From a virus, in the UHGV virus genome UHGV-1522278: 54,320 nt of DNA. The stretch is one strand, 5' to 3'. The notes below the pieces were generated by a model. It was not told where the DNA came from. It was given only the letters and a program-made list of their open reading frames with translations, and searched no databases. The translations under genes and the position numbers were made by a program. This document shows positions 1,633 through 54,064 of this stretch, one piece after another. Positions within the stretch are counted from its first letter, which is position 1. Each line of letters opens with the position of its first letter.

Positions 1633-2294
1633 TATCTTTTCCCCGTGAATTCAACATGTCCGATACATCCATCAATAATAGCTTGCGCCATATTGCGATA
1701 ATCGCACGAAAAATCGTTGTCGTGGTTAAAGTCAATCTCTTTTGCCGCGTCTTCACCCATGACATTGATAGCAAGTGCAAGCGCGATTTCAGATAGTGCC
1801 TTTTCTTTCGGGTCAATGTGAATGCGGTAAGAGTATTGTTTCCATGCGATTGCTGTTTCAATATCTGATACTAATTTACTGTGAGCGATAGCCCAATTAT
1901 CACCGAGATATAAAAACTTGACGACATCAAGAACCGTTCCGCTGGTTACACCCATACAATCAAGCCACACATTAACAGGAGGTTTATCACCTGCGGCCCA
2001 TTCCGTTTTTTCTGGTTGTTTTTCGCAGTCATGCCGCTCATCTTCGATTAATTCATCAATGATCTCACTTTCTTTATTCATGCCGTCATCATCCTTATTC
2101 GATAAATTAGCGTATTTATCAAATTTCCAGCTTGCAGCCATAACCGAATAAGTGCCGCCAGTGTCAGCGCGAACACCCAATAGATAGTATGATCCAAAAT
2201 TATATTCTGTGCGGCATGTTGTTACCTCAAACGATGGGTAACATTCAGGGTTAGTGCGATGGCTAATCACGCCAATTGCTTTAAGTTTATTCAT
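1632..2294 (-). CDS. hypothetical protein (att-proximal cargo)
   Basis: 220-aa ORF with an acidic central stretch; no motif recognised. Confidence 0.55.
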   Translation of the reverse strand: MNKLKAIGVISHRTNPECYPSFEVTTCRTEYNFGSYYLLGVRADTGGTYSVMAASWKFDKYANLSNKDDDGMNKESEIIDELIEDERHDCEKQPEKTEWAAGDKPPVNVWLDCMGVTSGTVLDVVKFLYLGDNWAIAHSKLVSDIETAIAWKQYSYRIHIDPKEKALSEIALALAINVMGEDAAKEIDFNHDNDFSCDYRNMAQAIIDGCIGHVEFTGKR

Positions 2295-2308
2295 TTGCTT
2301 ATCCTCAA

Positions 2309-2485
2309 TTACGCCACCGTTACATTGTCAACTTTGATAAAATATTCAGGATGGTTTTCTATTTCGTGCTTGAAGTGTGCGTGACACAATCGCCAATCAC
2401 GCGCCTGGTTGTGAAAGTAATAAACATATTCGCCATCAATCTTATACAAAATTCCAGTAGGTTTAGCCATATAATAACGAGCCAT
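2309..2485 (-). CDS. hypothetical protein
   Basis: start trimmed to the internal ATG at 2485 (GGGGG RBS; ATG overlaps the ninB stop by 1 nt); 58 aa. Confidence 0.45.
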   Translation of the reverse strand: MARYYMAKPTGILYKIDGEYVYYFHNQARDWRLCHAHFKHEIENHPEYFIKVDNVTVA

Positions 2486-2916
2486 TATTGCCCCCAGCGT
2501 TTTATAAATTCCTCGTTTAACTTCGTATCGCCAGACCACTGAACACCGTGTTCAGCGCCGAACGAGTAGATCAGTTCGATTAATTCGCTAAATTCTGATT
2601 TACTCATCCGGCTGGTTGATGTTCCCAGCACAACAAAACCTGATTTATCCAGGTTAGGGACAACGCCATATTTCTTAAGCCCGGCAGTGAATACCGCCTT
2701 CCAGTCTTCCGGCGACAGCTTTTTGCCGTACCAATTAACCTGATCGCTAACGTCTGTCAGCAGCGCCCAAAGTAACGCGTTTTGACTCAGCGAGCGGGTT
2801 TTCTCCTGGATGGTAATGACCAGCGGGCTTTTGCTATCAGGCAGGATTTCCTTTATCTGCCTGATAGCGTTTTCTTTTACGGCATCGTTGACTATTTCAA
2901 ATCTTATTTGCCTCAT
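2485..2916 (-). CDS. ninB: NinB-like recombination protein (Orf family)
   Basis: 143 aa with clear similarity to lambda NinB (IQE..RSL.QN..LWA.L.DVS.QV.W.G, VVPNL, GFVV.G.STSRM). Confidence 0.85.
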   Translation of the reverse strand: MRQIRFEIVNDAVKENAIRQIKEILPDSKSPLVITIQEKTRSLSQNALLWALLTDVSDQVNWYGKKLSPEDWKAVFTAGLKKYGVVPNLDKSGFVVLGTSTSRMSKSEFSELIELIYSFGAEHGVQWSGDTKLNEEFIKRWGQ

Positions 2917-3110
2917 GATACACCGTTACTATTTTTCCACTGTGCCCGCGCATACATGATCGCCCGCAAAGAAATTAGGCGCGAGCTTGTCATGAAAGCG
3001 CTTTTTAAGTACCTCATATCAACAACAACAGGCTTATCAGGATCGTCGCCGCGCATGTATTCCGCAATTGTGCTTAAGTCTTCCACGGTCAAATCTAATT
3101 CCCTATTCAT
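2913..3110 (-). CDS. hypothetical protein
   Basis: 65-aa ORF in the nin-like region, start coupled to upstream gene. Confidence 0.45.
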   Translation of the reverse strand: MNRELDLTVEDLSTIAEYMRGDDPDKPVVVDMRYLKSAFMTSSRLISLRAIMYARAQWKNSNGVS

Positions 3111-3326: not shown

Positions 3327-3880
3327 AATTCCAACCCCGTTTCTCCGTTAAGTTTTTCAATCTCAAATACTGGTTTATCAGGTAGCAGGTAGTTATTTTT
3401 CCGGTACTCGTTCAGGCGGCTGTCAAAGTCAAACGCCAAATCATTGGCGTGACCGAATCGCCCAGGTTTAAACAGTGAGTAAAAATTAACCCCATGCCTA
3501 TTTGGATCAACGCAAAGCGTTTCATCAATCACCATTAAACGCAGAGTACGAGAAAGATAATTCCACGGTATACCCGTTTCAGCGCTAATGTCGCGCATAC
3601 GCTTTTTAACGCTGTAGTCACCAAATAACGACGCGACACGCTCACGACGTTCAGCATATAACTGTTTAATACGATAACCCAGCAGGCGGCGGCGGCGTCC
3701 AAAGCATGTATACACGCGCTCGACGATGCCGTTTTTTATTAAGTGTTTAATTGTCTCAGGCATGATTCCATACTTATCATACCCAGCCAATAACCCTGTT
3801 TTCTGGCGTAACTGGTGCATTGTTGCGATGCCATCAAGTTCAAGGATATTGATAATTTTTGTTTCAATTTCAGCGCTCAT
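3323..3880 (-). CDS. hypothetical protein
   Basis: 185-aa ORF downstream of the helicase gene in the same operon. Confidence 0.55.
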   Translation of the reverse strand: MSAEIETKIINILELDGIATMHQLRQKTGLLAGYDKYGIMPETIKHLIKNGIVERVYTCFGRRRRLLGYRIKQLYAERRERVASLFGDYSVKKRMRDISAETGIPWNYLSRTLRLMVIDETLCVDPNRHGVNFYSLFKPGRFGHANDLAFDFDSRLNEYRKNNYLLPDKPVFEIEKLNGETGLEL

Positions 3881-3956
3881 TTTTAGCCTCGTTTAAAACG
3901 CGATAACAGCCACCAGAAAGCGGTAAACTTTCCGGTAAGCCGTTTGCTCAGATTAA

Positions 3957-5372
3957 TTAAAAAGATGTGTTATTCTGATTGTTTCGTTGGTTAAAACGGC
4001 TTGTGCGATGATTCATTGACTGAATACACGCGGCGGCGGCGCGAGCCTGGTCGCATGGCAAGATATTACCGTTGTCATCAAACCGCTGGTAAACAGTTCC
4101 AGACTTACCATGACGGTTTTTTGACACAATGATTTCCATATATTCGCGGGCAACAGACTGTTCATCGTAATATCCATCTCGGTAAACCATGATTATCCTG
4201 TCGGCATCTTGCTCAAGGTTGCCAGAATCACGAAGATCAGAATTGTTAGGGCGCTTGTTCGGTCGTTCCTCAACGCGGCGTGACAGTTGCGCCAGCGCCA
4301 ACACTGGTACACGCAATTCTTTCGCCATCATCTTCAACGACCACGACAATTGCCCTACAGCGAGATCGTGACGTTCGGCCTTAGCCAGCTTCATTAACCC
4401 GATGTAGTCAATCATTACCATGCCCAAATTTGGGTGATCCTGTTTCATGCGTTCCGTTGTTGCGCGTATTTCCTCAACCGTTAACTGCGACGCGTCAACG
4501 ATCCACACATCAAGGTTAGCAAGTGCGCTCATGCCCTGGCCGACATGCGCCCACCCCTCATCATCAAGTTTTACCGGATTGCGCAGGCAGTCGGTTGATA
4601 AATTACCAGCGCCAGCGATGGCGCGTTCAGTCATCTGATCGAGTGACATTTCAAGCGTGAAGAACAAAACGCCAACCCGCTGATCTTTACTGCCAGGGTA
4701 AGGGCGTTCAGCGGCAGCGCGGGCAATTGCAAGCGCCAACGCAGATTTACCAGACCCAGGACGTCCAGCTAAAAGCACCAAATCAGTAGCGTTAATGCCG
4801 CCCAACATCTCATCGAGTGGATCTATCCCTGTTTTGATGTTGTCAGAATTAACACCGCATTCCATGCGCTTGCTTAAAACGTCCGTATATTCCTGTACCG
4901 CATCACGCAACAGAACAGGAATGATCTTATCTTTCGTTACCTTTAATTTTGAATACCGGGAATCAAAATCTTTCATCGTCTCTTTGACGACCTCAAGCGT
5001 CCCCGTCTCCAGTTTGTAGCGCATATCGTCGATGAGTTCCAACATCTGCCGCCGCTGGTGCTCTTCACGTAGTAGCTGTGCGTATCCCTTAAGGTTGGCA
5101 GCAGAAGGGCACGAACGCGCCGTTTGCATTAGGGGCACGAAATTTTCATTGCCAATCTCATCGCCAACAAGCAATGCGTCTATCAGATTCCTGTTTCTGG
5201 CTTGCGCCCGGATAACTTCAAACGCACGTTTATAAAGCGGGATCGTGAACACTTCAGGATCAAGCGTGGCGAGAACATCTTGCGCGTTAGGAGTAAGGCC
5301 ACCCAACAACAGCCCGCCGATAACTGACGCCTCACGTTCCTGCCGTAGTGAGTTTATTTGCTCAGTTACCAT
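3957..5372 (-). CDS. replicative DNA helicase, DnaB family
   Basis: 471 aa; Walker A GRPGSGKS and DnaB-like N- and C-terminal regions. Confidence 0.9.
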   Translation of the reverse strand: MVTEQINSLRQEREASVIGGLLLGGLTPNAQDVLATLDPEVFTIPLYKRAFEVIRAQARNRNLIDALLVGDEIGNENFVPLMQTARSCPSAANLKGYAQLLREEHQRRQMLELIDDMRYKLETGTLEVVKETMKDFDSRYSKLKVTKDKIIPVLLRDAVQEYTDVLSKRMECGVNSDNIKTGIDPLDEMLGGINATDLVLLAGRPGSGKSALALAIARAAAERPYPGSKDQRVGVLFFTLEMSLDQMTERAIAGAGNLSTDCLRNPVKLDDEGWAHVGQGMSALANLDVWIVDASQLTVEEIRATTERMKQDHPNLGMVMIDYIGLMKLAKAERHDLAVGQLSWSLKMMAKELRVPVLALAQLSRRVEERPNKRPNNSDLRDSGNLEQDADRIIMVYRDGYYDEQSVAREYMEIIVSKNRHGKSGTVYQRFDDNGNILPCDQARAAAACIQSMNHRTSRFNQRNNQNNTSF

Positions 5373-44838: not shown

Positions 44839-47800
44839 ATGAGTAGCGGCGGCGGCAAAGCCAAAACACCAACATTATTAAACGATAACCTGTTTCATAA
44901 ACAGTTTTATCGTGTTTTGGACATTCTCAGCGAAGGCCCAATCTACGGCCCTGTAAACCAGAAAGCGCCATTAAACAGCGTAATGCTTAATGACAGCCCA
45001 ATCACTGACGCCAACGGCGGCACATCGGTCCCTGGCGTTAGCGTGGCGTGGCGTAATGGTACGGCTGACCAGTCACCAATCAACGGCTTCAACGCCATTG
45101 AATCAACCGTTATTGTTAACGCAAAAGTGACTCACGATACGCCAATAATCAGGACTGTTTCAGATCCAAACGTTAACCGCGTAAGGCTGAATCTTGGCGT
45201 TGATTCTCTGGTTCAGTCAGATGATAAGGGCAATCAATACAATACATCTGTTGTGTTGATGGTTGATGTTAAGCCATCATCGTCAACAACGTGGTCACTG
45301 GTCAAAGATATTACCATTGGCCCTGGTAAACAAAGCGGCGAGTATATGGAAGCGCACATCATCCAAGCGCCGGATGAAAAACCGTTTGATATTCGCGTTC
45401 GTCGCGTAACGCCAGACAGTAAAAGCGATCTACTTCGCAATGACACCAGGTGGAGCAGTTACAGCGAGATAATAGACGATAACTTGTCTTATCCCCATAC
45501 CGCTGTAGCAGGCGCGGTAATTGACCACGATCAGTATACCGACACGCCGACACGCACCTATCACATGCGCGGCCTGATTGTTGACGTGCCTGATAACTAC
45601 GACCCGGAAACACGCACATACTCAGGTTTATGGCTTGGTGGCTTCAAAAAGGCATACACCAACAACCCTGCATGGCTTTTCCGGTATCTGGTGAAAAATG
45701 AACGCTTCGGGCTTACCCGCCACGCCGGTTACATTGACGTTGATGATGGCGCATTATATGTGCTTTCTCAATACTGCGACCAGTTGGTAAACGACGGTTA
45801 CGGCGGCCTTGAACCACGCATGACGCTTAACGCTTACATCACTGAGCAAATTAGCGCCCGCGACTTGCTGGACAACATTGCAGGCATGTTCCGTGGTATC
45901 GCGTTATGGGACGGGCAGCGCCTTACGGTGATGATTGATGCACCGCAAGATCCAATTGCCACCATCACGAATGCAAACGTCGTTGATGGCGCATTTACTC
46001 GTTCAAGTATCGCCCGCGCGGAATCTTACAACGCTGTGATTGTGTCATGGACTGACCCGGAAAACGGTTGGGAACAATCAAAAGAATACGTAGCAGATGA
46101 TGAACTGATCGCCCGCGATGGTTACAACGAAACCACTTTGGAGGCTTTTGGTTGCACGTCACGCGGGCAGGCGTACCGCGCTGGCAAATGGCTGATAGAA
46201 ACAGCAAAACGCGAACCCTCAAAATTCACGTTTAAAATGGCCCGTGACGCGATTCACTTCACCCCAGGGGATATTATCGAGATACTCGACAATAACCGCG
46301 CTGGCGCTCGTTTAGGTGGTCGCATCGTGGCGAATAACGGGAAAGTGATAACCGTAGACAAGGTTGATTCTGACCTGGTGGCGGCTGGTGACACTATCAG
46401 CTTACTGGACAGCGACGGTAAGTTTAAAAAACATCAGATCACTGGGGTTAACGGAAACAATATTACCCTTGCGGCAGCGCCCGCATGGATTCGTAACGGA
46501 ACCGTATTTGCCGTTTCAACTGAATCCGCAAAACCTGTTCTGTGCCGAATTACCAGCGTAGCGGAAACCGAAAATAACAGCGTGTACACCATTGAGGCTG
46601 CACAGCACGATCCTCACAAACAGGCTGTAGTTGATGAAGGCGCAATCTTCGAGGTAAACAACGACACGCTTAATCACTTCCGCGTGCCGAACATTGAAAA
46701 TCTGAAGGTGTTAAATGTTGGTTCTGAAACTGTTCAATGTCGCGCAACATGGGAAACACAGACGACAACGCATCGCCTGACCTTTGAAATCCGCGTATAT
46801 AACACCGAAGGCCGCATTGTGGCAACTTATGAAACCACGAATTACCGCTATGATTTTTATGGCCTCGACGCTGGCAGCTACACGCTTGGTATTCGCGGGC
46901 GTAATGACACTGGCATGAAGGGTGCGGAAAGTATTGTAGACCTGGTTATTGGTGCGCCAGCGGCCCCGATTGGAGTCAATTGGGTTCCAGGTGTCTTCCA
47001 GGCAACGGTATATCCGATCAGCAAAACAACCCTTACCACTGATACGGCATATGATTTCTACTACTCAGGTGAAAATCAGATCACAGATCCATCAAAAGTA
47101 ACCACGCTGGCGCAATTCACCGGGCGCGGCTACCAATGGACTTTTGGCGGTATGAATACGGGACACACTTATTACGTCTATGTGCGCACGCGTAATGCCT
47201 TTGGTGTGTCAGACTTCGTTGAGGCATCAGGTAAACCGACTGAAAACTTCGACGAAATCAGCGACTACGTGATGAAGGATGTCATGGAGTCAGAACAATT
47301 CAAGGACATGATTGGCGACATTAAAGATCTTGGCGACCGTGCCGACCTTATCGAAAGCGCTACAAATGACCTTAAAAACGCTACTGACAACCTCAAAACT
47401 GCAACTGACACCCTGACAAACGTCACTGACGAATTGAGGACTGATACTGACAACCTGACAAACATCACTGAGGATTTAAGGACTGACACTGACAGCTTAA
47501 TCACAGAAACAGGAGTCATAAAAGCTGACACGGACACACTGAAAAAAGAAACGGAAGATCTCTACAAAAAAGTTAAAGAGAACGCCGATGATATTGGTCA
47601 GCATGAGTCCAGAATCGACTTATTAGAAGTGTCAAGCGAAAAAGTTGACAGCGAACTGGCGCAGGCAAAAGCAAGCCTGCAAAACGCTTCATTGGCGCTT
47701 ATCAACAACTCGCTTGCACAGACAAACACGCGCGTAACCCTTACCGCCCAGTATAAGAAAGGCATGACGGAAACGAAAGCGGAAATTGACCGTATTGACA

Positions 47801-50280
47801 ACGTTATCGCTGAAGAGAAAAAAGCGACAGCGGAATCACTGGAAACCATCACGGCAGAAATGAACACGATGGATTCCAACCTTAAAGGTCAGATTTCCAG
47901 CGTGGAACGTGCAGTGGCTGACGAGGCCAGCGCACGCGCCGAAGCTATTAACGGTGTGAACGCCTCAATAGACAATCTCGACAAGAAAACTGACGCCAGC
48001 GTTAAACGTCTGGACCAGGCAATCGCCGATGAATCGAGCGCGCGCACCCAGGCTGTCAGCGACGTTAACGCAAGCATTTCAGCACTTGACAAGAAAACTG
48101 ACGCCAGCGTTAAACGCCTTGATCAAGCTATTGCAGACGAAACAAGCGCACGCGCCGAAGCTATCAATGGGGTAAATGCCTCAGTATCAGCACTTGATAA
48201 GAAAACCGATTCAAGCATAAGCCGCCTTGATAAAGCTATTGCCGACGAAACGAGCGCGAGAACCGAAGCCATCAATGGTGTGAAGGCATCAATCTCCACA
48301 CTTGACGGCAAGGTAACAAGTAACGTTAATCGCCTTGATAAAGCTATTACAGACGAAACTAAGGCACGCACTGACGCTATCAGCAGCGTTAATGCAAGCA
48401 TCAGCACGCTTGAAAGCAACACTGAATCAGAGGTGAACAGACTCGACCAGGCCATCGCTGACGAGGCCAGCGCACGCGCACAGGCCATCAGTGGCGTGAA
48501 GGCATCGATAGACACCCTTGATAAGAAAACAGACGCCAGCGTTTCCCGTCTTGATAAAGCGATAGCAGACGAAACTCAGGCAAGAAGCGCCGCAATAACA
48601 GATGTTAAGGCTGATTTGACAACGCTCGAAAACAGCACAAACGCCAGCGTCAAACGCCTTGACCAGGCGATTGCTGACGAATCAAGTGCCCGCGCTGAAG
48701 CAATATCAGGCATTAACGCAGAGATCGGCAGCATCGAAAACAACGTTGACAAAAACAGCGATGATATAAATCAGACCAAAGCAAGCCTGCAAAACGCTTC
48801 ATTGGCGCTTATCAACAACTCGCTTGCACAGACAAACACGCGCGTAACCCTTACCGCCCAGTATAAGAAAGGTCGCAAGGAAACAAACGCGCAGATTGAT
48901 CGTATTGACAGTGTTATCGCTGAAGAGAAAAAGGCTACAGCCGAAGCAATTGGCGTGGTAAAAGCATCGATCACCGATCTTGACAAGAAAACAGACGCCA
49001 GCGTTTCCCGCCTTGACAGAGCGATTGCAGACGAAACAAGCGCACGCAGCGAGGCTATCAGCGGCGTGAACGCATCAATTTCCACCATTGATAGTAATGT
49101 GAAAAGCAATATTACCAGGATGGATAAGGCTATCGCCGACGAAACAAAAGCACGCGCAGACGCAATAAGCGGCCTTAATGCATCGCTTACCAGTACGATC
49201 ACCTCGAAAGTATCTGAGGTATCAACGGCACTGGCTACGCATGAGGAATCAAGCGCTGAAAAATTCAGCCAGATCTCAGCGTCATTCGAACTAGTAGACG
49301 CAAGTATCACTGAATGGTCGCAGGCGATGGCTACGGCTGACGAGGCGTTATCAACGAAAATCGATCAGCTAACAGTGACCGTTAACGGGAATAAGACGGC
49401 AATAGAAACGACATCTAAAGCATTGACCGACTTCAAGGGCAATGTTGATGCGTCGTACTCTATCAAGCTGGCGACCGACAACAACGGAATGAAATACGCA
49501 ACAGGTATGTCGCTTGGCCTCACTGGTGACGGCACTAACTTTCAGTCGCAGTGTATTTTCCTTGTTGACCGTTTCGTGTTAATGACCGCAGCAAACGGCA
49601 CATATACAACGCCTTTCTATGTCACCAATGGCGCAATGTATGTAAGAGAAGCGTTTATTAAGGACGGAACTATCAACTCCGCCAAAATAGCTGATCGAAT
49701 ACAGTCAGTTAATTACAGCTGGGAAAACGGTACAGGATGGGCGATAGATAAAGCCGGTGACGCAGTATTTAACCAGGTAACCGTAAGGGGTACGGTATAC
49801 GCTTATGCTGGTGTGTTTAACGGTACTGTTTACGCAACTGGCGGTAAATTTACTGGAGCAGTTGAAGCTACAAGTTTTGTTGGTGACGTGGCAAGTATGT
49901 CAGTGATAAACGAGGATGTATTTCCGTCAATGAGGGGAAATGGCAGCAGGCGCGTTTCGAAAACTTATCTTGATTCAAGTTCATCAAGTTTATCAAAAAC
50001 AGTTTACGTTATGATTCCGTATGATTTGTCATACCATACATATAGTGAATCTTCTCGCATCAATGTAACTATAAATATAAGCGGACACACAAAAACAATT
50101 AATATAGAAAGGCCAGCATCAGGCCAAGCAATGTCATCTGTCGCGGTGCACTGTGTATCTGGCCTCACATACCCAACAATTACAGTCGAGGTGACGGAAA
50201 ACTTTACCAATACATCTAATGCAGCAATAAGAAAACCAGGTTTAATACTTATAACAAGAAGTTCAGGAACATGGATATAA
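44839..50280 (+). CDS. J: host-specificity / central tail fibre protein J-like, extended by a long coiled-coil repeat domain
   Basis: 1813 aa; N-terminal two-thirds J-like; aa about 1020-1450 are about 11 tandem 37-aa repeats (LDKKTDASVKRLDQAIADE.SAR.EAI.GVNASI); distinct C-terminal domain. Confidence 0.85.
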   Translation: MSSGGGKAKTPTLLNDNLFHKQFYRVLDILSEGPIYGPVNQKAPLNSVMLNDSPITDANGGTSVPGVSVAWRNGTADQSPINGFNAIESTVIVNAKVTHDTPIIRTVSDPNVNRVRLNLGVDSLVQSDDKGNQYNTSVVLMVDVKPSSSTTWSLVKDITIGPGKQSGEYMEAHIIQAPDEKPFDIRVRRVTPDSKSDLLRNDTRWSSYSEIIDDNLSYPHTAVAGAVIDHDQYTDTPTRTYHMRGLIVDVPDNYDPETRTYSGLWLGGFKKAYTNNPAWLFRYLVKNERFGLTRHAGYIDVDDGALYVLSQYCDQLVNDGYGGLEPRMTLNAYITEQISARDLLDNIAGMFRGIALWDGQRLTVMIDAPQDPIATITNANVVDGAFTRSSIARAESYNAVIVSWTDPENGWEQSKEYVADDELIARDGYNETTLEAFGCTSRGQAYRAGKWLIETAKREPSKFTFKMARDAIHFTPGDIIEILDNNRAGARLGGRIVANNGKVITVDKVDSDLVAAGDTISLLDSDGKFKKHQITGVNGNNITLAAAPAWIRNGTVFAVSTESAKPVLCRITSVAETENNSVYTIEAAQHDPHKQAVVDEGAIFEVNNDTLNHFRVPNIENLKVLNVGSETVQCRATWETQTTTHRLTFEIRVYNTEGRIVATYETTNYRYDFYGLDAGSYTLGIRGRNDTGMKGAESIVDLVIGAPAAPIGVNWVPGVFQATVYPISKTTLTTDTAYDFYYSGENQITDPSKVTTLAQFTGRGYQWTFGGMNTGHTYYVYVRTRNAFGVSDFVEASGKPTENFDEISDYVMKDVMESEQFKDMIGDIKDLGDRADLIESATNDLKNATDNLKTATDTLTNVTDELRTDTDNLTNITEDLRTDTDSLITETGVIKADTDTLKKETEDLYKKVKENADDIGQHESRIDLLEVSSEKVDSELAQAKASLQNASLALINNSLAQTNTRVTLTAQYKKGMTETKAEIDRIDNVIAEEKKATAESLETITAEMNTMDSNLKGQISSVERAVADEASARAEAINGVNASIDNLDKKTDASVKRLDQAIADESSARTQAVSDVNASISALDKKTDASVKRLDQAIADETSARAEAINGVNASVSALDKKTDSSISRLDKAIADETSARTEAINGVKASISTLDGKVTSNVNRLDKAITDETKARTDAISSVNASISTLESNTESEVNRLDQAIADEASARAQAISGVKASIDTLDKKTDASVSRLDKAIADETQARSAAITDVKADLTTLENSTNASVKRLDQAIADESSARAEAISGINAEIGSIENNVDKNSDDINQTKASLQNASLALINNSLAQTNTRVTLTAQYKKGRKETNAQIDRIDSVIAEEKKATAEAIGVVKASITDLDKKTDASVSRLDRAIADETSARSEAISGVNASISTIDSNVKSNITRMDKAIADETKARADAISGLNASLTSTITSKVSEVSTALATHEESSAEKFSQISASFELVDASITEWSQAMATADEALSTKIDQLTVTVNGNKTAIETTSKALTDFKGNVDASYSIKLATDNNGMKYATGMSLGLTGDGTNFQSQCIFLVDRFVLMTAANGTYTTPFYVTNGAMYVREAFIKDGTINSAKIADRIQSVNYSWENGTGWAIDKAGDAVFNQVTVRGTVYAYAGVFNGTVYATGGKFTGAVEATSFVGDVASMSVINEDVFPSMRGNGSRRVSKTYLDSSSSSLSKTVYVMIPYDLSYHTYSESSRINVTINISGHTKTINIERPASGQAMSSVAVHCVSGLTYPTITVEVTENFTNTSNAAIRKPGLILITRSSGTWI
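47668..47762 (+). repeat. exact 95-bp direct repeat, copy 1 (inside J)
   Basis: identical to 48778-48872; similarity continues with mismatches for about 100 bp more. Confidence 0.8.
47896..49200 (+). repeat. degenerate tandem coding repeats (about 111-bp unit, about 11 copies) inside J
   Basis: periodic repetition of GACAAGAAAACTGACGCCAGCGTTAAACG...ATTGC(A/C)GACGAA-type units; in-frame coding, not CRISPR. Confidence 0.6.
48778..48872 (+). repeat. exact 95-bp direct repeat, copy 2 (inside J)
   Basis: identical to 47668-47762. Confidence 0.8.
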
Positions 50281-50285
50281 AAAAC

Positions 50286-50313
50286 AACCCCGCTTCGCGC
50301 GGGGTTTTCTTTT
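50286..50313. terminator. bidirectional rho-independent terminator between J and the lipoprotein gene
   Basis: AACCCCGC-ttcgc-GCGGGGTT followed by TTTCTTTT. Confidence 0.6.
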
Positions 50314-50560
50314 AGTAGTTAGCTACACAGTTAGAAGGGCTACCGATGCGGCGCATGTTGTGATCGAGTTCGTGACACCATTGACCAGTATATGGCAGTT
50401 TTTCAGTGTCATAGACTAGATGCCCGCCACCATCATAAACAACATCTTGCGGAATTACTCCACTATTCGGCAGGTTATGCAATGCAGCCTCTTTGTCAAC
50501 AGAGCAACCAGTAAGAGCAACAGCCGCAGCGAACAAAACCACTTTGAACACGTTTTTCAT
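50312..50560 (-). CDS. lipoprotein, candidate Cor-like superinfection-exclusion protein
   Basis: 82 aa; signal peptide plus lipobox (MKNVFKVVLFAAAVALTGC); convergent with and immediately downstream of J. Confidence 0.7.
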   Translation of the reverse strand: MKNVFKVVLFAAAVALTGCSVDKEAALHNLPNSGVIPQDVVYDGGGHLVYDTEKLPYTGQWCHELDHNMRRIGSPSNCVANY

Positions 50561-50737
50561 TTTTGAACCCTCATTCTTGTTTGTTAATCCGGTTCACCCG
50601 GTGACTTAAATATCCGGCAAAACCACATTTCGTATATTGACACAGATCAACAAATACATTTTGTGTAAGCAGAAAATGCAACACAGATCACAAAATGGTA
50701 GAATTATTCCGTTAATTAACAAAATGGAGTCATCGAG

Positions 50738-53700
50738 ATGATTTACACAACTGGAACAATTGCCATCAGCGGCAATACTGTTACAGGCACGGGCACAAAC
50801 TTTTCCGCGCCGCTTTCTCTTATTCGTGTAGGTTGCACGCTCATTGCTGTTGGCAACCCTGTACAGATCTTTACCATCACGGAAATCAAAAGTGGTACTG
50901 AACTGTCAGTGACGCCAGCGGCTAACCCCGCCATCCCTGCCGGGACAAAATTTAGCATCCTGCTATCTGACTCGATCTCAGTTGATGGGCTTGCTCAGGA
51001 CGTGGCTGAAACCCTGCGTTACTACCAGAGCAAAGAAACAGAAATCGCCTCCGCTGTAGAGTGGTGGGAAGATTTCGGCGGCGAAGGTCAGTTGGATCAG
51101 CTTCTTACCAACATTCGCGCAGAAACAGCACAATCAACCGCCAACGCTCAAAAAACAGAAACTGACAAAAACGCAGCAGAAGCGTCAAAAACAGCGGCTG
51201 CAAAATCTGCCACAGCAGCGAAAACATCAGAAACTAACGCTAAGGCAAGCGAGACGGCAGCGAAAACAAGCGAAACCAACGCCAAAACATCAGAGAACAG
51301 GGCGCAAGAATATCTGAATCAGATAATAAGGTCTAACAACGCATTGGTACAATGCAATTGGCCTGTTACAACTGAAGCCTTTGCCCGTTATGTGAAGATC
51401 GCTAAACTAACCGATCCGGGTGCAGTAAGCTGCCATTTAACACTAATGATCGCCAATGGCGGTAACTACGGTACAAGTTACGGGAATATTGACTTTGTAG
51501 AGATCTCCGCTCGCGGTCTTAGCGATGTGGAAAGCATAACCAGTGAAAATATAACTAAATTTTTAAGTGTTCGCCGCCTCGGATCGCCTAACCTTGCTAA
51601 TGACAACCAAATGCGTTACGGCCTGGTTAAAGGTGACGGCTATATCGAGGTCTGGTGCTACCAGCGAGCTTTTATTAAAGAAACAAAGGTTGCGATACTG
51701 GCACAGACTGGCAGAACTGAATTATACATTCCTGAAGGGTATGTCGTTCAGGAAGCCGAACCCGCTGGATATGTTGAAAGCCCAGCAGCAAGGATTTACG
51801 ATCAGGTAAACAAACCAAGCAAGGCAGACTTAGGCCTTTCTAATGCTATGCTTATAGGCGCTTTTGGTCTTGGCGGCAGCGGTCCGTCATCAAACGGCAT
51901 GATGAGCAATACAGAGCTATTAAAAGCACTGCGTGCAAAAGGTAGTCATTTCTGGCGTGCTGATAAGCCTGACGGAAGCACAGCGACACATTACGCCCAC
52001 GGTTCTGGTATATTCTCTCGGTGCGGTGATACATGGTCGGCGATCAACATAGAATACGAAAATGCCAGAGTTAAGATTTTCGCTGGCAATGATAACAAAC
52101 TTGAAACTGCAACTTATGCCGTAAATGAGCTATACGGAACCAAAAATAAGCCGTCGAAATCTGACGTTGGACTTGGCAACGTAACTAATGATGCGCAGGT
52201 GAAAAAATCCGGCGATATTATGTCTGGCGACCTGGCGGTCTATAAAGATACTCCGTCACTATTCCTTAGGGCAAAAGATGGAGCAGGTGCTGCCGCTGTG
52301 CGGTTTTTCACTGATCAAAACCTGGAGCGCGGCATAATCTATGCTATTCAAAACACTGATACGCTTGGAGAAGTTCGCATTAGGGCTAAAAACGCAAAAG
52401 GTGAAACAAACGGTGATCTTGTTGTTCGCCACAACGGGGTGGTTGAGGTTCAGAATCTCACAGCGGCTAAAAAAGTAAAAAGCGTAAACGCAGAGCTTGC
52501 AAACACATCAACTAACACGCTTGAGAACACGTTAAAAATCAGCGGTCAACAGCATACTCCATTACTTTTAACGCGTACCGGTTATACTGAAAACCTATCC
52601 ATTGGCTTTAAGGTTGACAACCTTGATCAAAAATATCTCGGAATCAATGGCAGTGGAGATCTAGCTTTTGGTAAAAATGCTGATCATAAACAAAACAGCA
52701 GAGTGATTACGCAAGCAATACTGGATAGCGGGGTGACGGTAGGCGGCAAAACAACATTTTCTGACCTTGCCACATTTAACGCAGGTATGGCTGGAGCAAT
52801 TGAGCCTGAAAGCATTTCTGAAGTGGCTGTTGATCTTAATAATCTGACCATAAAAGGCACAGATAAAGGTTCAGTTAAATACTATCACTGCAGAACTGCC
52901 GGAGGCGGTGCAAATATTACCAATAAGCCTGCTGGCATAGGTGGTAACTTTTTGCTTCGTGTAGAGTCAATTCGTAAGATCACGGATTCAGATTATACAA
53001 ACTTGCAAACCCTTGTTGGCACAGACACAAAACAAATATACGTTCGCTATTGTGAAAATGGCAATTGGTCTGCATGGAGTCAGATTGTTGTTTCAGGAAG
53101 AAATCAGGATGTAACCGTCAGGTCGTTAACCTCGACGACTCCATCAAAATTAGGTGGCGGGCGTATTGATGTGCTTGGGAGTACGTCAGATTATAACAGC
53201 ATGAATTGTACCGTGCGCGGTGTTGATAGCAGCGGAACTAATTCTGCGTGGTCAGTAGGCACATCAGTAGACACTGGCAAAATGTTGTTCCTGAAAAACC
53301 ACAGAAGCAGCGCTCAAGTGCTGTTAAATGGCGATGACGGCGCGGTTCAACTACTAAGCGGTACTGTCAACGGTGCTACAGCACAGGCGCTAACCATCAA
53401 CAAAGATGAGGTTAACTCAACTGCTGATTTAGTAATTAGAAAACAAACAGGGACTGGCAATCGTTTTGTTTTACAGAACGCAGGTAATGCAGAACTACCG
53501 TTTTCTGTCAGTGTGTGGGGTTCCAGTACTCGACAAAACGTTTTTGAGGTTGCCACGTCTGCTGCGTATCTGTTTTATGCGCAAAAAACGTCAGCAGGCC
53601 AGTTGTTTGATGTAAATGGCGCTATTAATTGCACAACGCTGAATCAGTCATCAGACCGCGACCTTAAAGACGATATTCTCGTTATCAGCGACGCGACGAA

Positions 53701-54064
53701 AGCAATCCGTAAAATGAACGGATACACCTACACGCTCAGGGAAAACGGGATGCCTTATGCTGGCGTTATTGCACAGGAAGTAATGGAGGCGCTACCGGAA
53801 GCCGTAGGATCGTTTACTCGTTACGGTGAAGAATTGCAGGGTCCGACCATTGATGGCAACGAGCTACGCGAAGAAACGCGTTACCTCAATGTTGATTATG
53901 CGGCGGTGACTGGTTTACTTGTCCAGGTGGCACGCGAAACGGATAACCGCGTCACCAAACTGGAAGAGGAAAACGCCAGCCTGAAAGCTAACATTGCCGC
54001 AATGGATGAGCGTATCGCAAAACTTGAAGCGCTTGTCAGTCAGTTGACCGGAAGCGAAGAATAA
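50738..54064 (+). CDS. side tail fibre protein with C-terminal intramolecular chaperone (S74-type) domain
   Basis: 1108 aa; Thr/Ala-rich SETNAK-type repeats near the N-terminus; C-terminal about 120 aa resemble the self-cleaving chaperone domain and end in a coiled coil. Confidence 0.85.
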   Translation: MIYTTGTIAISGNTVTGTGTNFSAPLSLIRVGCTLIAVGNPVQIFTITEIKSGTELSVTPAANPAIPAGTKFSILLSDSISVDGLAQDVAETLRYYQSKETEIASAVEWWEDFGGEGQLDQLLTNIRAETAQSTANAQKTETDKNAAEASKTAAAKSATAAKTSETNAKASETAAKTSETNAKTSENRAQEYLNQIIRSNNALVQCNWPVTTEAFARYVKIAKLTDPGAVSCHLTLMIANGGNYGTSYGNIDFVEISARGLSDVESITSENITKFLSVRRLGSPNLANDNQMRYGLVKGDGYIEVWCYQRAFIKETKVAILAQTGRTELYIPEGYVVQEAEPAGYVESPAARIYDQVNKPSKADLGLSNAMLIGAFGLGGSGPSSNGMMSNTELLKALRAKGSHFWRADKPDGSTATHYAHGSGIFSRCGDTWSAINIEYENARVKIFAGNDNKLETATYAVNELYGTKNKPSKSDVGLGNVTNDAQVKKSGDIMSGDLAVYKDTPSLFLRAKDGAGAAAVRFFTDQNLERGIIYAIQNTDTLGEVRIRAKNAKGETNGDLVVRHNGVVEVQNLTAAKKVKSVNAELANTSTNTLENTLKISGQQHTPLLLTRTGYTENLSIGFKVDNLDQKYLGINGSGDLAFGKNADHKQNSRVITQAILDSGVTVGGKTTFSDLATFNAGMAGAIEPESISEVAVDLNNLTIKGTDKGSVKYYHCRTAGGGANITNKPAGIGGNFLLRVESIRKITDSDYTNLQTLVGTDTKQIYVRYCENGNWSAWSQIVVSGRNQDVTVRSLTSTTPSKLGGGRIDVLGSTSDYNSMNCTVRGVDSSGTNSAWSVGTSVDTGKMLFLKNHRSSAQVLLNGDDGAVQLLSGTVNGATAQALTINKDEVNSTADLVIRKQTGTGNRFVLQNAGNAELPFSVSVWGSSTRQNVFEVATSAAYLFYAQKTSAGQLFDVNGAINCTTLNQSSDRDLKDDILVISDATKAIRKMNGYTYTLRENGMPYAGVIAQEVMEALPEAVGSFTRYGEELQGPTIDGNELREETRYLNVDYAAVTGLLVQVARETDNRVTKLEEENASLKANIAAMDERIAKLEALVSQLTGSEE

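What the first reader, a model, noticed from the sequence alone, without database searches (positions are those of the whole stretch)
50286..50737. Lipoprotein gene convergent with J: candidate Cor/Llp-type superinfection exclusion factor
An 82-aa lipoprotein (lipobox LTGC) is encoded on the minus strand immediately after the J gene, sharing a bidirectional terminator with it. In several lambdoid and T1-like phages a small outer-membrane lipoprotein at this position (Cor) blocks the phage's own receptor. The upstream divergent region carries repeated CACAGATCA and ACAAAATG motifs.
Basis: inference. Interest (0 to 1): 0.5.

Follow-up and report, generated by a model that had tools for sequence, protein, structure and literature searches.

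The report
Phage lipoprotein that blocks LamB phages
The small gene next to the phage tail-tip gene J encodes an outer-membrane lipoprotein 97.6% identical to one already shown to stop maltoporin (LamB)-using phages, including lambda, from infecting the cell; it is real but already described, and it is not a Cor or Llp relative.

Summary
An 82-aa lipoprotein gene (50312..50560, minus strand, lipobox LTGC) lies 31 bp after J. The two genes share a hairpin terminator at 50286-50306. The window is a genome of the mEpimmI group of temperate coliphages.

The protein is 97.6% identical to mEp010 gp116 (Lpp010). Plasmid-expressed Lpp010 excluded the LamB-dependent phages mEp010, mEp044, mEp554 and lambda (PMC11893012). 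Homologues sit in the same convergent position after J in Seuratvirus, Nonagvirus, Dhillonvirus and one Drexlerviridae phage. All eight carriers with a tested receptor use LamB. The window's J tip resembles the J tips of LamB-dependent phages.

The family and the receptor are not:
- There is no detectable sequence similarity to Cor, T5 Llp or Rtp45 beyond the signal peptide.
- The expected target is LamB, not FhuA or BtuB.
- The repeated motifs lie mostly in a conserved upstream region of the tail-fibre gene, and one copy of each pair is not conserved in relatives.

How a lipoprotein blocks a plug-less porin is unsolved. Two structure predictions were too poor to use. Verdict: already known, low to moderate interest.

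The parts
50312..50560 (-). Gene for the 82-aa prolipoprotein, orthologue of mEp010 Lpp010 (type-C Lpp). Signal peptide codons are 50507-50560, the lipobox L16-T17-G18-C19 is 50504-50515, and the 64-aa mature protein (Cys19 to Tyr82) is 50315-50506. Cys62 and Cys78 are conserved.
   Evidence: ORF. 97.6% identity to mEp010 gp116. PHROG 12984 'lipoprotein' at E=1.6e-26. Lipobox rule met. dN/dS 0.04-0.13. Conserved columns in the family alignment.
50568..50572 (-). Shine-Dalgarno sequence GAGGG, 8 nt upstream of the ATG.
   Evidence: Read directly from the sequence.
50286..50306 (.). G+C-rich hairpin AACCCCGC-TTCGC-GCGGGGTT with T-runs on both strands. It is a shared, convergent intrinsic terminator for J and the lipoprotein gene.
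   Evidence: Terminator scan. Fold energies -15.4 and -19.7 kcal/mol, z -2.9 and -4.8. The homologous hairpin is annotated as a terminator in mEp010, mEp013, mEp044 and mEp554.
44839..50280 (+). Tail-tip / central fibre gene J (1813 aa), convergent with the lipoprotein gene.
   Evidence: Pfam gpJ domains and PHROG 31.
49882..50277 (+). C-terminal receptor-binding tip of J (last 132 aa, after the FVGDVA motif), here called 'type B'. Over the last 115 aa it is about 41% identical to the tips of the LamB-dependent Seuratvirus WildeMaa (Bas23) and the Dhillonvirus HH3, and 26% identical to the mEp010 tip ('type A').
   Evidence: tblastn of the last 229 aa. Pairwise identities. Receptors from BASEL S5 Table.
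50561..50649 (.). 5' flank of the lipoprotein gene, conserved only among carriers of this lipoprotein. No convincing sigma-70 promoter was found on the minus strand.
   Evidence: Alignment A2. Promoter scans.
50650..50737 (+). Near-invariant region upstream of the side tail-fibre gene, shared with phages that carry other cassettes. It holds the second ACACAGATCA copy, the ACAAAATGG copies, an invariant inverted repeat (50657-50665 / 50689-50697) and an extended -10 TGGTAGAAT (50696-50704). It is not part of the exclusion gene.
   Evidence: Alignment A2. Repeats. Megablast matches of this stretch in prophages lacking the lipoprotein.

Best explanation
The gene encodes a small lipoprotein that excludes superinfecting phages which use the maltoporin LamB.

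Proposed steps:
1. The 82-aa precursor is exported, lipidated on Cys19 and cleaved. Because residue +2 is Ser rather than Asp, the Lol system sends it to the outer membrane. These steps are inferred from the sequence and from the E. coli sorting rule.
2. The roughly 7-kDa mature protein, probably with a Cys62-Cys78 disulfide, then acts on LamB so that J tips can no longer use it for irreversible adsorption and DNA delivery. Action on LamB is inferred. The exclusion phenotype is shown only for the 97.6%-identical orthologue.
3. In this temperate phage it would protect the lysogen or the infected cell, and it would keep released virions from being wasted on LamB in cell debris. In virulent relatives it would act as T5 Llp does.

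The most likely mode is the one solved for Llp on FhuA and Rtp45 on LptDE: binding at the periplasmic rim of the receptor and distorting the extracellular loops. This last step is analogy only.
For: Identity with a tested protein. The window protein is 97.6% identical to mEp010 gp116 (Lpp010). It differs at two positions: S20 in the window against A20 (the +2 residue), and G45 against S45. Plasmid-expressed Lpp010 excluded the LamB-dependent phages mEp010, mEp044, mEp554 and lambda. The paper does not report exclusion of mEp021 or mEp515 by Lpp010 (PMC11893012).

Receptor association.
- All eight carriers whose receptor has been tested use LamB. These are mEp010, mEp013, mEp044 and mEp554 and Bas21-24 (BASEL S5 Table; homologues).
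- No homologue was found in mEp021 or mEp515 (reported as OmpA-dependent), and none appeared for the LptD phage Bas25.

Conserved position. In all 15 loci examined, from five phage lineages, the gene is convergent with J and roughly 30-45 bp beyond its stop codon.

Independence from the J tip.
- The window's J tip is homologous to the tips of LamB-dependent phages.
- Two J tip types, at most about 40% identical to each other, both have LamB-dependent members.
- The lipoprotein groups by phage lineage and not by tip type. Within the mEpimmI group it is 91-100% identical while the tips are only 22-38% identical between types.
- Lambda, whose tip is unrelated, is also excluded. The common denominator is therefore the receptor, not the tip.

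Gene quality. The lipobox rule is met in 15 of 15 homologues, and two further Cys are conserved. dN/dS is 0.04-0.13.

Prior prediction. van den Berg et al. 2022 already predicted a superinfection-exclusion lipoprotein downstream of gpJ in the LamB phage Bas23 (PMC9586334). Bas23's gene is a homologue, 64% identical in the mature part.
Against: - No experiment exists for this allele or for any phage with the type-B J tip found here. Lpp010 was tested only against type-A tips and lambda.
- Lpp010 failed to exclude mEp013, which is LamB-dependent and has an identical mature lipoprotein. Exclusion is therefore not a simple loss of LamB.
- Binding to LamB, an adsorption block and the cellular location have never been shown. 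The published assays were spot tests only.
- LamB has no plug and no known allostery (point raised in PMC9586334).
- No promoter for the gene could be identified, so when it is expressed is unknown.
- Structure prediction failed (mean pLDDT 56.8 and 51.3), so there is no structural support.
Confidence: 0.75

Rival explanations
1. The lipoprotein excludes phages after adsorption. It would block DNA ejection or passage through the periplasm or inner membrane, for example by binding the tape-measure or tail-tip complex as Streptococcus phage TP-J34 Ltp does. It would not act on LamB.
For: The published data are plating assays only, with no adsorption measurements. mEp013 uses LamB yet escapes, which is easy to explain if the target is a phage protein. 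The paper's authors themselves list interference with DNA ejection as one possible mode.
Against: Lambda is excluded although its genome is otherwise unrelated. The paper does not report exclusion of mEp021 or mEp515, which belong to the same phage group as mEp010. The gene is always linked to LamB-type J tips across five lineages whose tail genes otherwise differ.
Confidence: 0.12
2. The lipoprotein lowers the amount or assembly of LamB in the outer membrane, for example by interfering with its biogenesis or expression, rather than binding the mature trimer.
For: LamB has no plug or known allosteric route. Nothing so far distinguishes fewer receptors from blocked receptors.
Against: mEp013 still plates on Lpp010-expressing cells although it strictly needs LamB, so usable LamB must remain. 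The two solved analogues both act by direct binding (PMC9586334, PMC12685063).
Confidence: 0.07
3. It is a Cor- or Llp-family protein that inactivates FhuA or another TonB-dependent transporter such as BtuB.
For: It has the same size class, the same lipoprotein nature and a conserved Cys pair. A true Cor sits at the same slot in the UMNK88 prophage.
Against: No hit to the Cor model, while the control scores 54.5 bits. No similarity to Llp or Rtp45 beyond the signal peptide (with controls). Every carrier with a tested receptor uses LamB.
Confidence: 0.02
4. It is a moron (an accessory gene added to the phage genome) that benefits the host in ways unrelated to phages, like the lambda Bor lipoprotein. 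Alternatively it is a lysis component such as an Rz1-type outer-membrane spanin.
For: It is a small outer-membrane lipoprotein on the strand opposite the late genes, with its own terminator. Lambda carries the accessory gene lom at the equivalent position after J.
Against: An exclusion phenotype has been shown for the orthologue. The gene is also present in virulent phages, where lysogenic conversion makes no sense. It is not embedded in or next to an inner-membrane spanin gene. It is tightly linked to J.
Confidence: 0.03

Closest known systems
Lpp010 (mEp010 gp116), the 'type-C' Lpp exclusion lipoprotein of mEpimmI phages (Negrete-Mendez et al. 2025, PMC11893012)
   Same: 80 of 82 residues are identical. 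The position (between J and the side tail-fibre gene, convergent with J), the terminator and the phage group are the same. Its tested function is exclusion of LamB-dependent phages, including lambda.
   Different: There are two substitutions: S20 here against A20 in Lpp010 (the +2 sorting residue, not Asp in either) and G45 against S45. The adjacent J tip is of a different type, 26% identical over the last 115 aa. Self-exclusion by this allele is therefore untested.
Unnamed lipoproteins downstream of gpJ in LamB-targeting Seuratvirus (Bas21-24, CAjan, Seurat), Nonagvirus 9g and Dhillonvirus (EP23, PNS1, HH3). They were predicted to be superinfection-exclusion proteins by Maffei et al. 2021 and van den Berg et al. 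2022.
   Same: They are homologous, 59-67% identical in the mature part, with invariant PNSGV.P, DTEKLP.TGQWC and RRIGSPSNC motifs. The convergent position after J is the same, and so is the link to LamB-type J tips.
   Different: Those phages are virulent and belong to unrelated lineages. The tether after the lipidated Cys differs (GNGLNTGK there, SVDKEAALHNL here). None of them has been tested experimentally.
Cor (phi80, N15, T1, HK022; NCBIfam NF047972)
   Same: A small outer-membrane lipoprotein of about 60 mature residues with a Cys pair, encoded near the tail-fibre genes, that excludes phages sharing the carrier's own receptor. A true Cor occupies the same slot in a related prophage.
   Different: No sequence similarity beyond the signal peptide. 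Cor acts on FhuA. This family is tied to LamB.
T5 Llp (PDB 8A60, 7QJF)
   Same: A roughly 60-residue mature lipoprotein encoded next to the receptor-binding gene. It inactivates the phage's own receptor. In virulent carriers the role would be the same: protecting the infected cell and sparing progeny from debris.
   Different: No sequence similarity. Llp works through the plug and loop allostery of a TonB-dependent transporter, which LamB lacks. The fold could not be compared.
Rtp45 (PDB 9RPS; Pfam PF24052), the LptDE-directed superinfection-exclusion lipoprotein of phage RTP
   Same: It sits in the same locus class downstream of gpJ. It shows that such lipoproteins can block a receptor that is not TonB-dependent, from the periplasmic side (PMC12685063).
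   Different: A different family: no PF24052 hit for the window protein, and only the signal peptide aligns. Rtp45 comes with a separate receptor-binding protein (Rtp44), whereas here the receptor-binding domain is the C-terminus of J.

Membership tests
Bacterial lipoprotein (substrate of the lipid-transfer enzyme Lgt and signal peptidase II, LspA) | N-terminal signal peptide with a basic n-region, a hydrophobic core and a lipobox [LVI][ASTVI][GAS]C, with the Cys at position 15-35. | tested here: met
   K2 and K6, core VVLFAAAVA, lipobox LTGC with Cys19. The rule is met in all 15 homologues.
Bacterial lipoprotein (substrate of the lipid-transfer enzyme Lgt and signal peptidase II, LspA) | Actual lipidation and outer-membrane localisation. 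| not testable with these tools
   Only inferred. Residue +2 is Ser (Ala or Gly in homologues), never Asp, which by the E. coli +2 rule predicts Lol-dependent sorting to the outer membrane.
mEpimmI type-C Lpp (Lpp010) / PHROG 12984 | Full-length sequence similarity to Lpp010. | tested here: met
   97.6% identity over 82 aa. PHROG 12984 at E=1.6e-26, covering 7-82 of the protein and 5-77 of the 77-position profile.
mEpimmI type-C Lpp (Lpp010) / PHROG 12984 | Gene lies between J and the side tail-fibre gene, convergent with J and sharing its terminator, in an mEpimmI-type genome. | tested here: met
   The window is about 90% identical to mEp010 over 91% of its first 25 kb.
mEpimmI type-C Lpp (Lpp010) / PHROG 12984 | Expression excludes LamB-dependent phages. 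| not testable with these tools
   Shown for Lpp010 only (PMC11893012).
Superinfection-exclusion gene of the receptor-specificity locus downstream of gpJ (Maffei et al. 2021) | Located directly downstream of gpJ, with an allele that matches the terminal receptor. | tested here: met
   The gene is convergent with J in all 15 loci examined, roughly 30-45 bp beyond its stop codon. All eight carriers with a tested receptor use LamB.
Cor (NCBIfam NF047972) | Score of at least 31 bits against the Cor model. | tested here: not met
   No Cor hit at E<=1. The UMNK88 Cor control scores 54.5 bits. The profile comparison aligns only residues 1-22, the signal peptide.
Cor (NCBIfam NF047972) | Excludes FhuA-dependent phages. 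| not testable with these tools
   No data. The linked J tips are of LamB type.
T5 Llp | Sequence similarity to Llp (PDB 8A60 chain B, 7QJF). | tested here: not met
   PDB searches with the single sequence and with the family profile do not find Llp at E<=10. An Llp control finds 8a60_B and 7qjf_A. The profile comparison aligns only the signal peptide.
T5 Llp | The Llp fold. | tested here: inconclusive
   Two AlphaFold2 runs gave mean pLDDT 56.8 and 51.3. That is too low for a meaningful fold search, so none was run.
Rtp45-type phage lipoprotein (Pfam PF24052) | Pfam PF24052 hit at or above 27 bits. | tested here: not met
   No PF24052 hit. The mEp021 Lpp021 control scores 106.8 bits. The comparison with Rtp45 aligns only the signal peptide. 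Rtp45 is in the PDB copy searched but was not hit.

The most novel reading that the evidence does not exclude
This orphan family may block a plug-less, trimeric diffusion porin (LamB) by a structural mechanism unlike those solved for Llp on FhuA and Rtp45 on LptDE. It might plug or distort the channel from the periplasm, or it might be flipped to the cell surface. Such a mechanism would be indifferent to which of at least three unrelated J tip types (A, B, lambda) attacks, while single tip variants such as mEp013 could still escape it. If the channel is plugged, the lysogen should pay a cost in maltodextrin uptake.
Probability: 0.35. Interest if true: 0.55.

Novelty: already known. Interest (0 to 1): 0.25.

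Why it matters
The gene adds one more allele to an exclusion lipoprotein that was tested in 2025. It adds no new biology.

Two small points go beyond the literature read here:
- Lpp010 belongs to the same family as the untested lipoproteins downstream of gpJ in LamB-targeting Seuratvirus, Nonagvirus and Dhillonvirus phages. The mEpimmI paper does not mention that link.
- The lipoprotein stays nearly constant while the adjacent J tip is swapped between two divergent LamB-binding types. This argues that it works on the receptor.

The open question, raised in 2022, is how a small lipoprotein can disable LamB. This family is the obvious reagent for answering it. Public databases still label every member 'hypothetical protein'.

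Tried and rejected
Structure. Two AlphaFold2 predictions were run: the full precursor with 23 sequences, and the mature part with 31 sequences. Mean pLDDT was 56.8 and 51.3. No fold search was run, because matches to such models are meaningless.

Remote homology.
- Exhaustive HMMER over 1.84 billion cluster representatives found only three true representatives of the family.
- Two roughly 4,450-aa proteins also matched through many weak repeats. The one checked is a SprB-repeat protein, so these matches were rejected as a repeat artefact.
- I briefly considered a resemblance between the central 'YDGGGHLVYD' stretch and YD repeats. It has no tool support and was dropped.

Libraries. Pfam, NCBIfam and PADLOC gave nothing for the protein beyond signal-peptide noise.

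RNA. The Rfam scan of 50200-50800 found only sub-threshold matches at the terminator.

Promoter. The consensus scan and my own scan found no credible sigma-70 promoter for the lipoprotein gene. The only minus-strand hit abuts the start codon (hexamer 50564-50559, ATG at 50560), leaving no room for a leader that would include the Shine-Dalgarno sequence.

Repeated motifs. Treating them as lipoprotein-specific regulatory sites was rejected after alignment with relatives.

Co-variation. A first attempt to delimit the J tip by the 'GDV' motif mis-delimited several sequences. It was redone with fixed-length tails.

Full report
**1. Observation**

The ORF list gives a minus-strand ORF at 50312..50560. 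It encodes 82 aa, MKNVFKVVLFAAAVALTGCSVDKEAALHNLPNSGVIPQDVVYDGGGHLVYDTEKLPYTGQWCHELDHNMRRIGSPSNCVANY.
- It lies between J (44839..50280, plus strand, 1813 aa, gpJ Pfam domains) and a 1108-aa tail-fibre gene with an S74 chaperone domain (50738..54064).
- The lipoprotein signal rule is met: a basic n-region, lipobox LTGC, Cys19 and Ser at +2.
- A GAGGG Shine-Dalgarno sequence lies 8 nt before the ATG.
- The 31-bp gap between the two stop codons holds an 8-bp hairpin (6 G-C pairs) at 50286-50306, with T-runs on both strands.
- The hairpin folds at -15.4 kcal/mol on the plus strand and -19.7 kcal/mol on the minus strand. The z-scores are -2.9 and -4.8.
- dN/dS against six relatives is 0.04-0.13, so this is a real gene under purifying selection.

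**2. The repeated motifs**

ACACAGATCA occurs at 50640 and 50681. ACAAAATGG occurs at 50690 and 50719, with an inverted copy at 50657. Alignment with five relatives shows three things.
- The sequence from about 50650 to the tail-fibre ATG is almost invariant. This holds even in mEp021 and in the UMNK88 prophage, which carry quite different cassettes in this slot.
- The stretch also matches prophages that lack the lipoprotein.
- One copy of each repeat pair is not conserved. The first CACAGATCA reads TATAAATCA, CACAAATCA or CATAAATCA in four relatives and does not align in mEp021. The second ACAAAATGG reads ACATAATGG in four of the five.

The conserved part contains an extended -10 (TGGTAGAAT, 50696-50704) on the plus strand. 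It therefore looks like the upstream region of the tail-fibre gene and not a control region for the lipoprotein gene. I found no credible sigma-70 promoter for the lipoprotein gene.

**3. Identity of the window and the gene**

The window is a member of the mEpimmI group of temperate, non-lambdoid coliphages.
- It is about 90% identical to mEp010 over 91% of its first 25 kb, and collinear with it.
- The lipoprotein is 97.6% identical to mEp010 gp116 and 94-96% identical to its counterparts in mEp013, mEp044, mEp554 and MagusPhagus.
- It hits PHROG 12984 ('lipoprotein') at E=1.6e-26.
- The exact sequence occurs in E. coli genomes, always named 'hypothetical protein'.
- 12 of 5,426 complete E. 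coli genomes have a DNA match to the gene, and 10 of these cover the full length.

**4. What is already known about it**

Negrete-Mendez et al. 2025 (PMC11893012) call gp116 'Lpp010', a 'type-C' lipoprotein.
- Expressed from a plasmid, it excluded mEp010, mEp044, mEp554 and lambda.
- It did not exclude mEp013.
- All four of these mEp phages need LamB.
- A different lipoprotein, Lpp021, excluded mEp021 and mEp515.

The authors noted that this was the first lipoprotein reported to exclude lambda. Earlier, van den Berg et al. 2022 (PMC9586334) observed that LamB-targeting phages such as Bas23 'likely do have SE lipoproteins' downstream of gpJ. They asked how such proteins could block a receptor without allostery.

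**5. Wider family and link to LamB**

tblastn finds homologues in 44 phage records.
- The groups are Seuratvirus (CAjan, Seurat, Bas21-24), Nonagvirus 9g, Dhillonvirus (EP23, PNS1, HH3), Cronobacter phage CSP1, Salmonella phage STP-SP5 and the Drexlerviridae phage AS5.
- Mature parts are 55-67% identical to the window protein.
- In every locus I fetched, the gene is convergent with J and roughly 30-45 bp beyond its stop codon.
- Bas21, Bas22, Bas23 and Bas24 are all LamB-dependent (BASEL S5 Table). All eight carriers with a tested receptor therefore use LamB.
- A 2026 preprint also ties distal GpJ domains in these phages to LamB.
- The family is narrow. An exhaustive HMMER search of 1.84 billion cluster representatives finds three true representatives.

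**6. J tip versus lipoprotein**

The last 229 aa of the window's J match the J C-termini of the same set of phages, plus HK97. Two tip types are evident.
- Type A: mEp010, mEp013, mEp044, mEp554, CSP1, KurtStettler (Bas22) and 9g.
- Type B: the window, prophage OZ501612, MagusPhagus, WildeMaa (Bas23), HH3, PNS1 and EP23.
- Identity between the types is at most about 40%. Both types include LamB-dependent phages.
- The tip of the Drexlerviridae phage AS5 fits neither type (25-38% identical to all others).
- The lambda tip is unrelated to both.

The lipoprotein groups by phage lineage and not by tip type.
- Within the mEpimmI group it is 91-100% identical, while tips of different types are 22-38% identical.
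- KurtStettler (type A) and WildeMaa (type B) have lipoproteins that are 97% identical.
- In the window, the break in similarity to mEp010 runs from the FVGDVA motif to the J stop codon. The last 400 nt of J, which cover this stretch, have a low G+C content: 38.5%, against 47.9% for J as a whole.

So the tip alone was exchanged and the lipoprotein was kept. Together with the exclusion of lambda, this argues that the lipoprotein acts on the shared receptor and not on a particular tip.

**7. Cor, Llp and Rtp45 membership**

- The NCBIfam Cor model gives no hit. The UMNK88 Cor control scores 54.5 bits.
- No Pfam family matches. The mEp021 lipoprotein is Pfam PF24052.
- PDB sequence searches with the protein and with the family profile find neither Llp nor Rtp45. 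Both are present in that PDB copy.
- Profile comparisons with Cor, Llp, Rtp45 and Lpp021 align only the signal peptide.
- Two structure predictions were of low confidence (mean pLDDT 56.8 and 51.3), so the fold could not be compared.

The protein works like Cor and Llp but is not a member of either family by any test I could run.

**8. Mechanism**

Shown: the near-identical orthologue blocks plating of LamB-dependent phages. Inferred:
- lipidation and sorting to the outer membrane (the +2 residue is not Asp);
- a Cys62-Cys78 disulfide, since both Cys are conserved;
- action on LamB;
- by analogy with Llp on FhuA and Rtp45 on LptDE, binding at the periplasmic side with distortion of the extracellular loops.

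The escape of mEp013 shows that usable LamB remains in the membrane, and that the block depends on how a given tip engages it. The rivals are a post-adsorption block of DNA entry, reduced LamB biogenesis, a host-fitness accessory gene or spanin, and true Cor or Llp membership. All are less well supported.

**9. Verdict**

The feature is real. What remains open is the structural mechanism on LamB.

Noticed in passing
L003 (mEp021) 1797-2950, minus strand; L018 (phage RTP) 4753-5918: In mEp021 the slot after J holds gp80 (311 aa) and the lipoprotein gp81 (Lpp021). They are 64% and 49% identical to Rtp44 and Rtp45, the LptDE-directed receptor-binding protein and exclusion lipoprotein of phage RTP (PDB 9RPS). 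The mEpimmI paper assigns OmpA as the main receptor, with leaky dependence, and never mentions LptD. The terminal receptor of mEp021 and mEp515 may therefore be the essential LptD, which a Keio knockout screen cannot reveal.
   Followed up: partly
L004 (E. coli UMNK88 prophage) 3457-4636: A related mEpimmI-like prophage has a true Cor (NF047972, 54.5 bits) plus two small plus-strand ORFs in the same slot between J and the side tail-fibre gene. The slot is thus a cassette hot spot holding at least three unrelated exclusion-lipoprotein families: the LamB type, the Rtp45 type and Cor.
   Followed up: partly
window 50650-50737: This 88-bp stretch upstream of the side tail-fibre gene is nearly invariant in six genomes, whatever cassette precedes it. 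It carries an extended -10 (TGGTAGAAT, 50696-50704). It also has an inverted repeat, CATTTTGTG / CACAAAATG (50657-50665 / 50689-50697), whose arms are invariant while the spacer varies. This could be a dedicated promoter and operator for the fibre gene downstream of the J terminator.
   Followed up: partly
window 49882-50277: The J receptor-binding tip has been exchanged relative to mEp010: 26-29% identity in the tip against 71% just upstream. The exchange runs between the FVGDVA motif and the stop codon. The last 400 nt of J, which cover this stretch, have a low G+C content (38.5% against 47.9% for J as a whole). The tip behaves as a module that recombines independently of the lipoprotein gene next to it.
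   Followed up: yes
window 47369-47494 and 47980-48359: J contains in-frame tandem repeats with periods of 21/42 nt and 108 nt (36-aa units such as DKKTDASVKRLDQAIADE.SAR.EAI.GVNASI..L). These lengthen J to 1813 aa. The mEpimmI paper notes repeats of variable length in this part of J.
   Followed up: no
window 50571-50722, minus strand; L001 3317-3445; L002 3350-3466: Short ORFs of 37-42 aa in the intergenic region are annotated as 'hypothetical protein' in mEp010, mEp013, mEp044, mEp554 and MagusPhagus. They overlap the conserved upstream region of the tail-fibre gene and are probably not genes.
   Followed up: no
L012 (PNS1) and L013 (EP23) about 1420-1662; L005 3969-4208: The homologous lipoprotein gene is not annotated at all in the PNS1 and EP23 records. 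In RefSeq prophage OZ501612 it is annotated from an internal Met, giving 79 aa instead of 82. Every database name found for the family is 'hypothetical protein' or 'lipoprotein'.
   Followed up: yes
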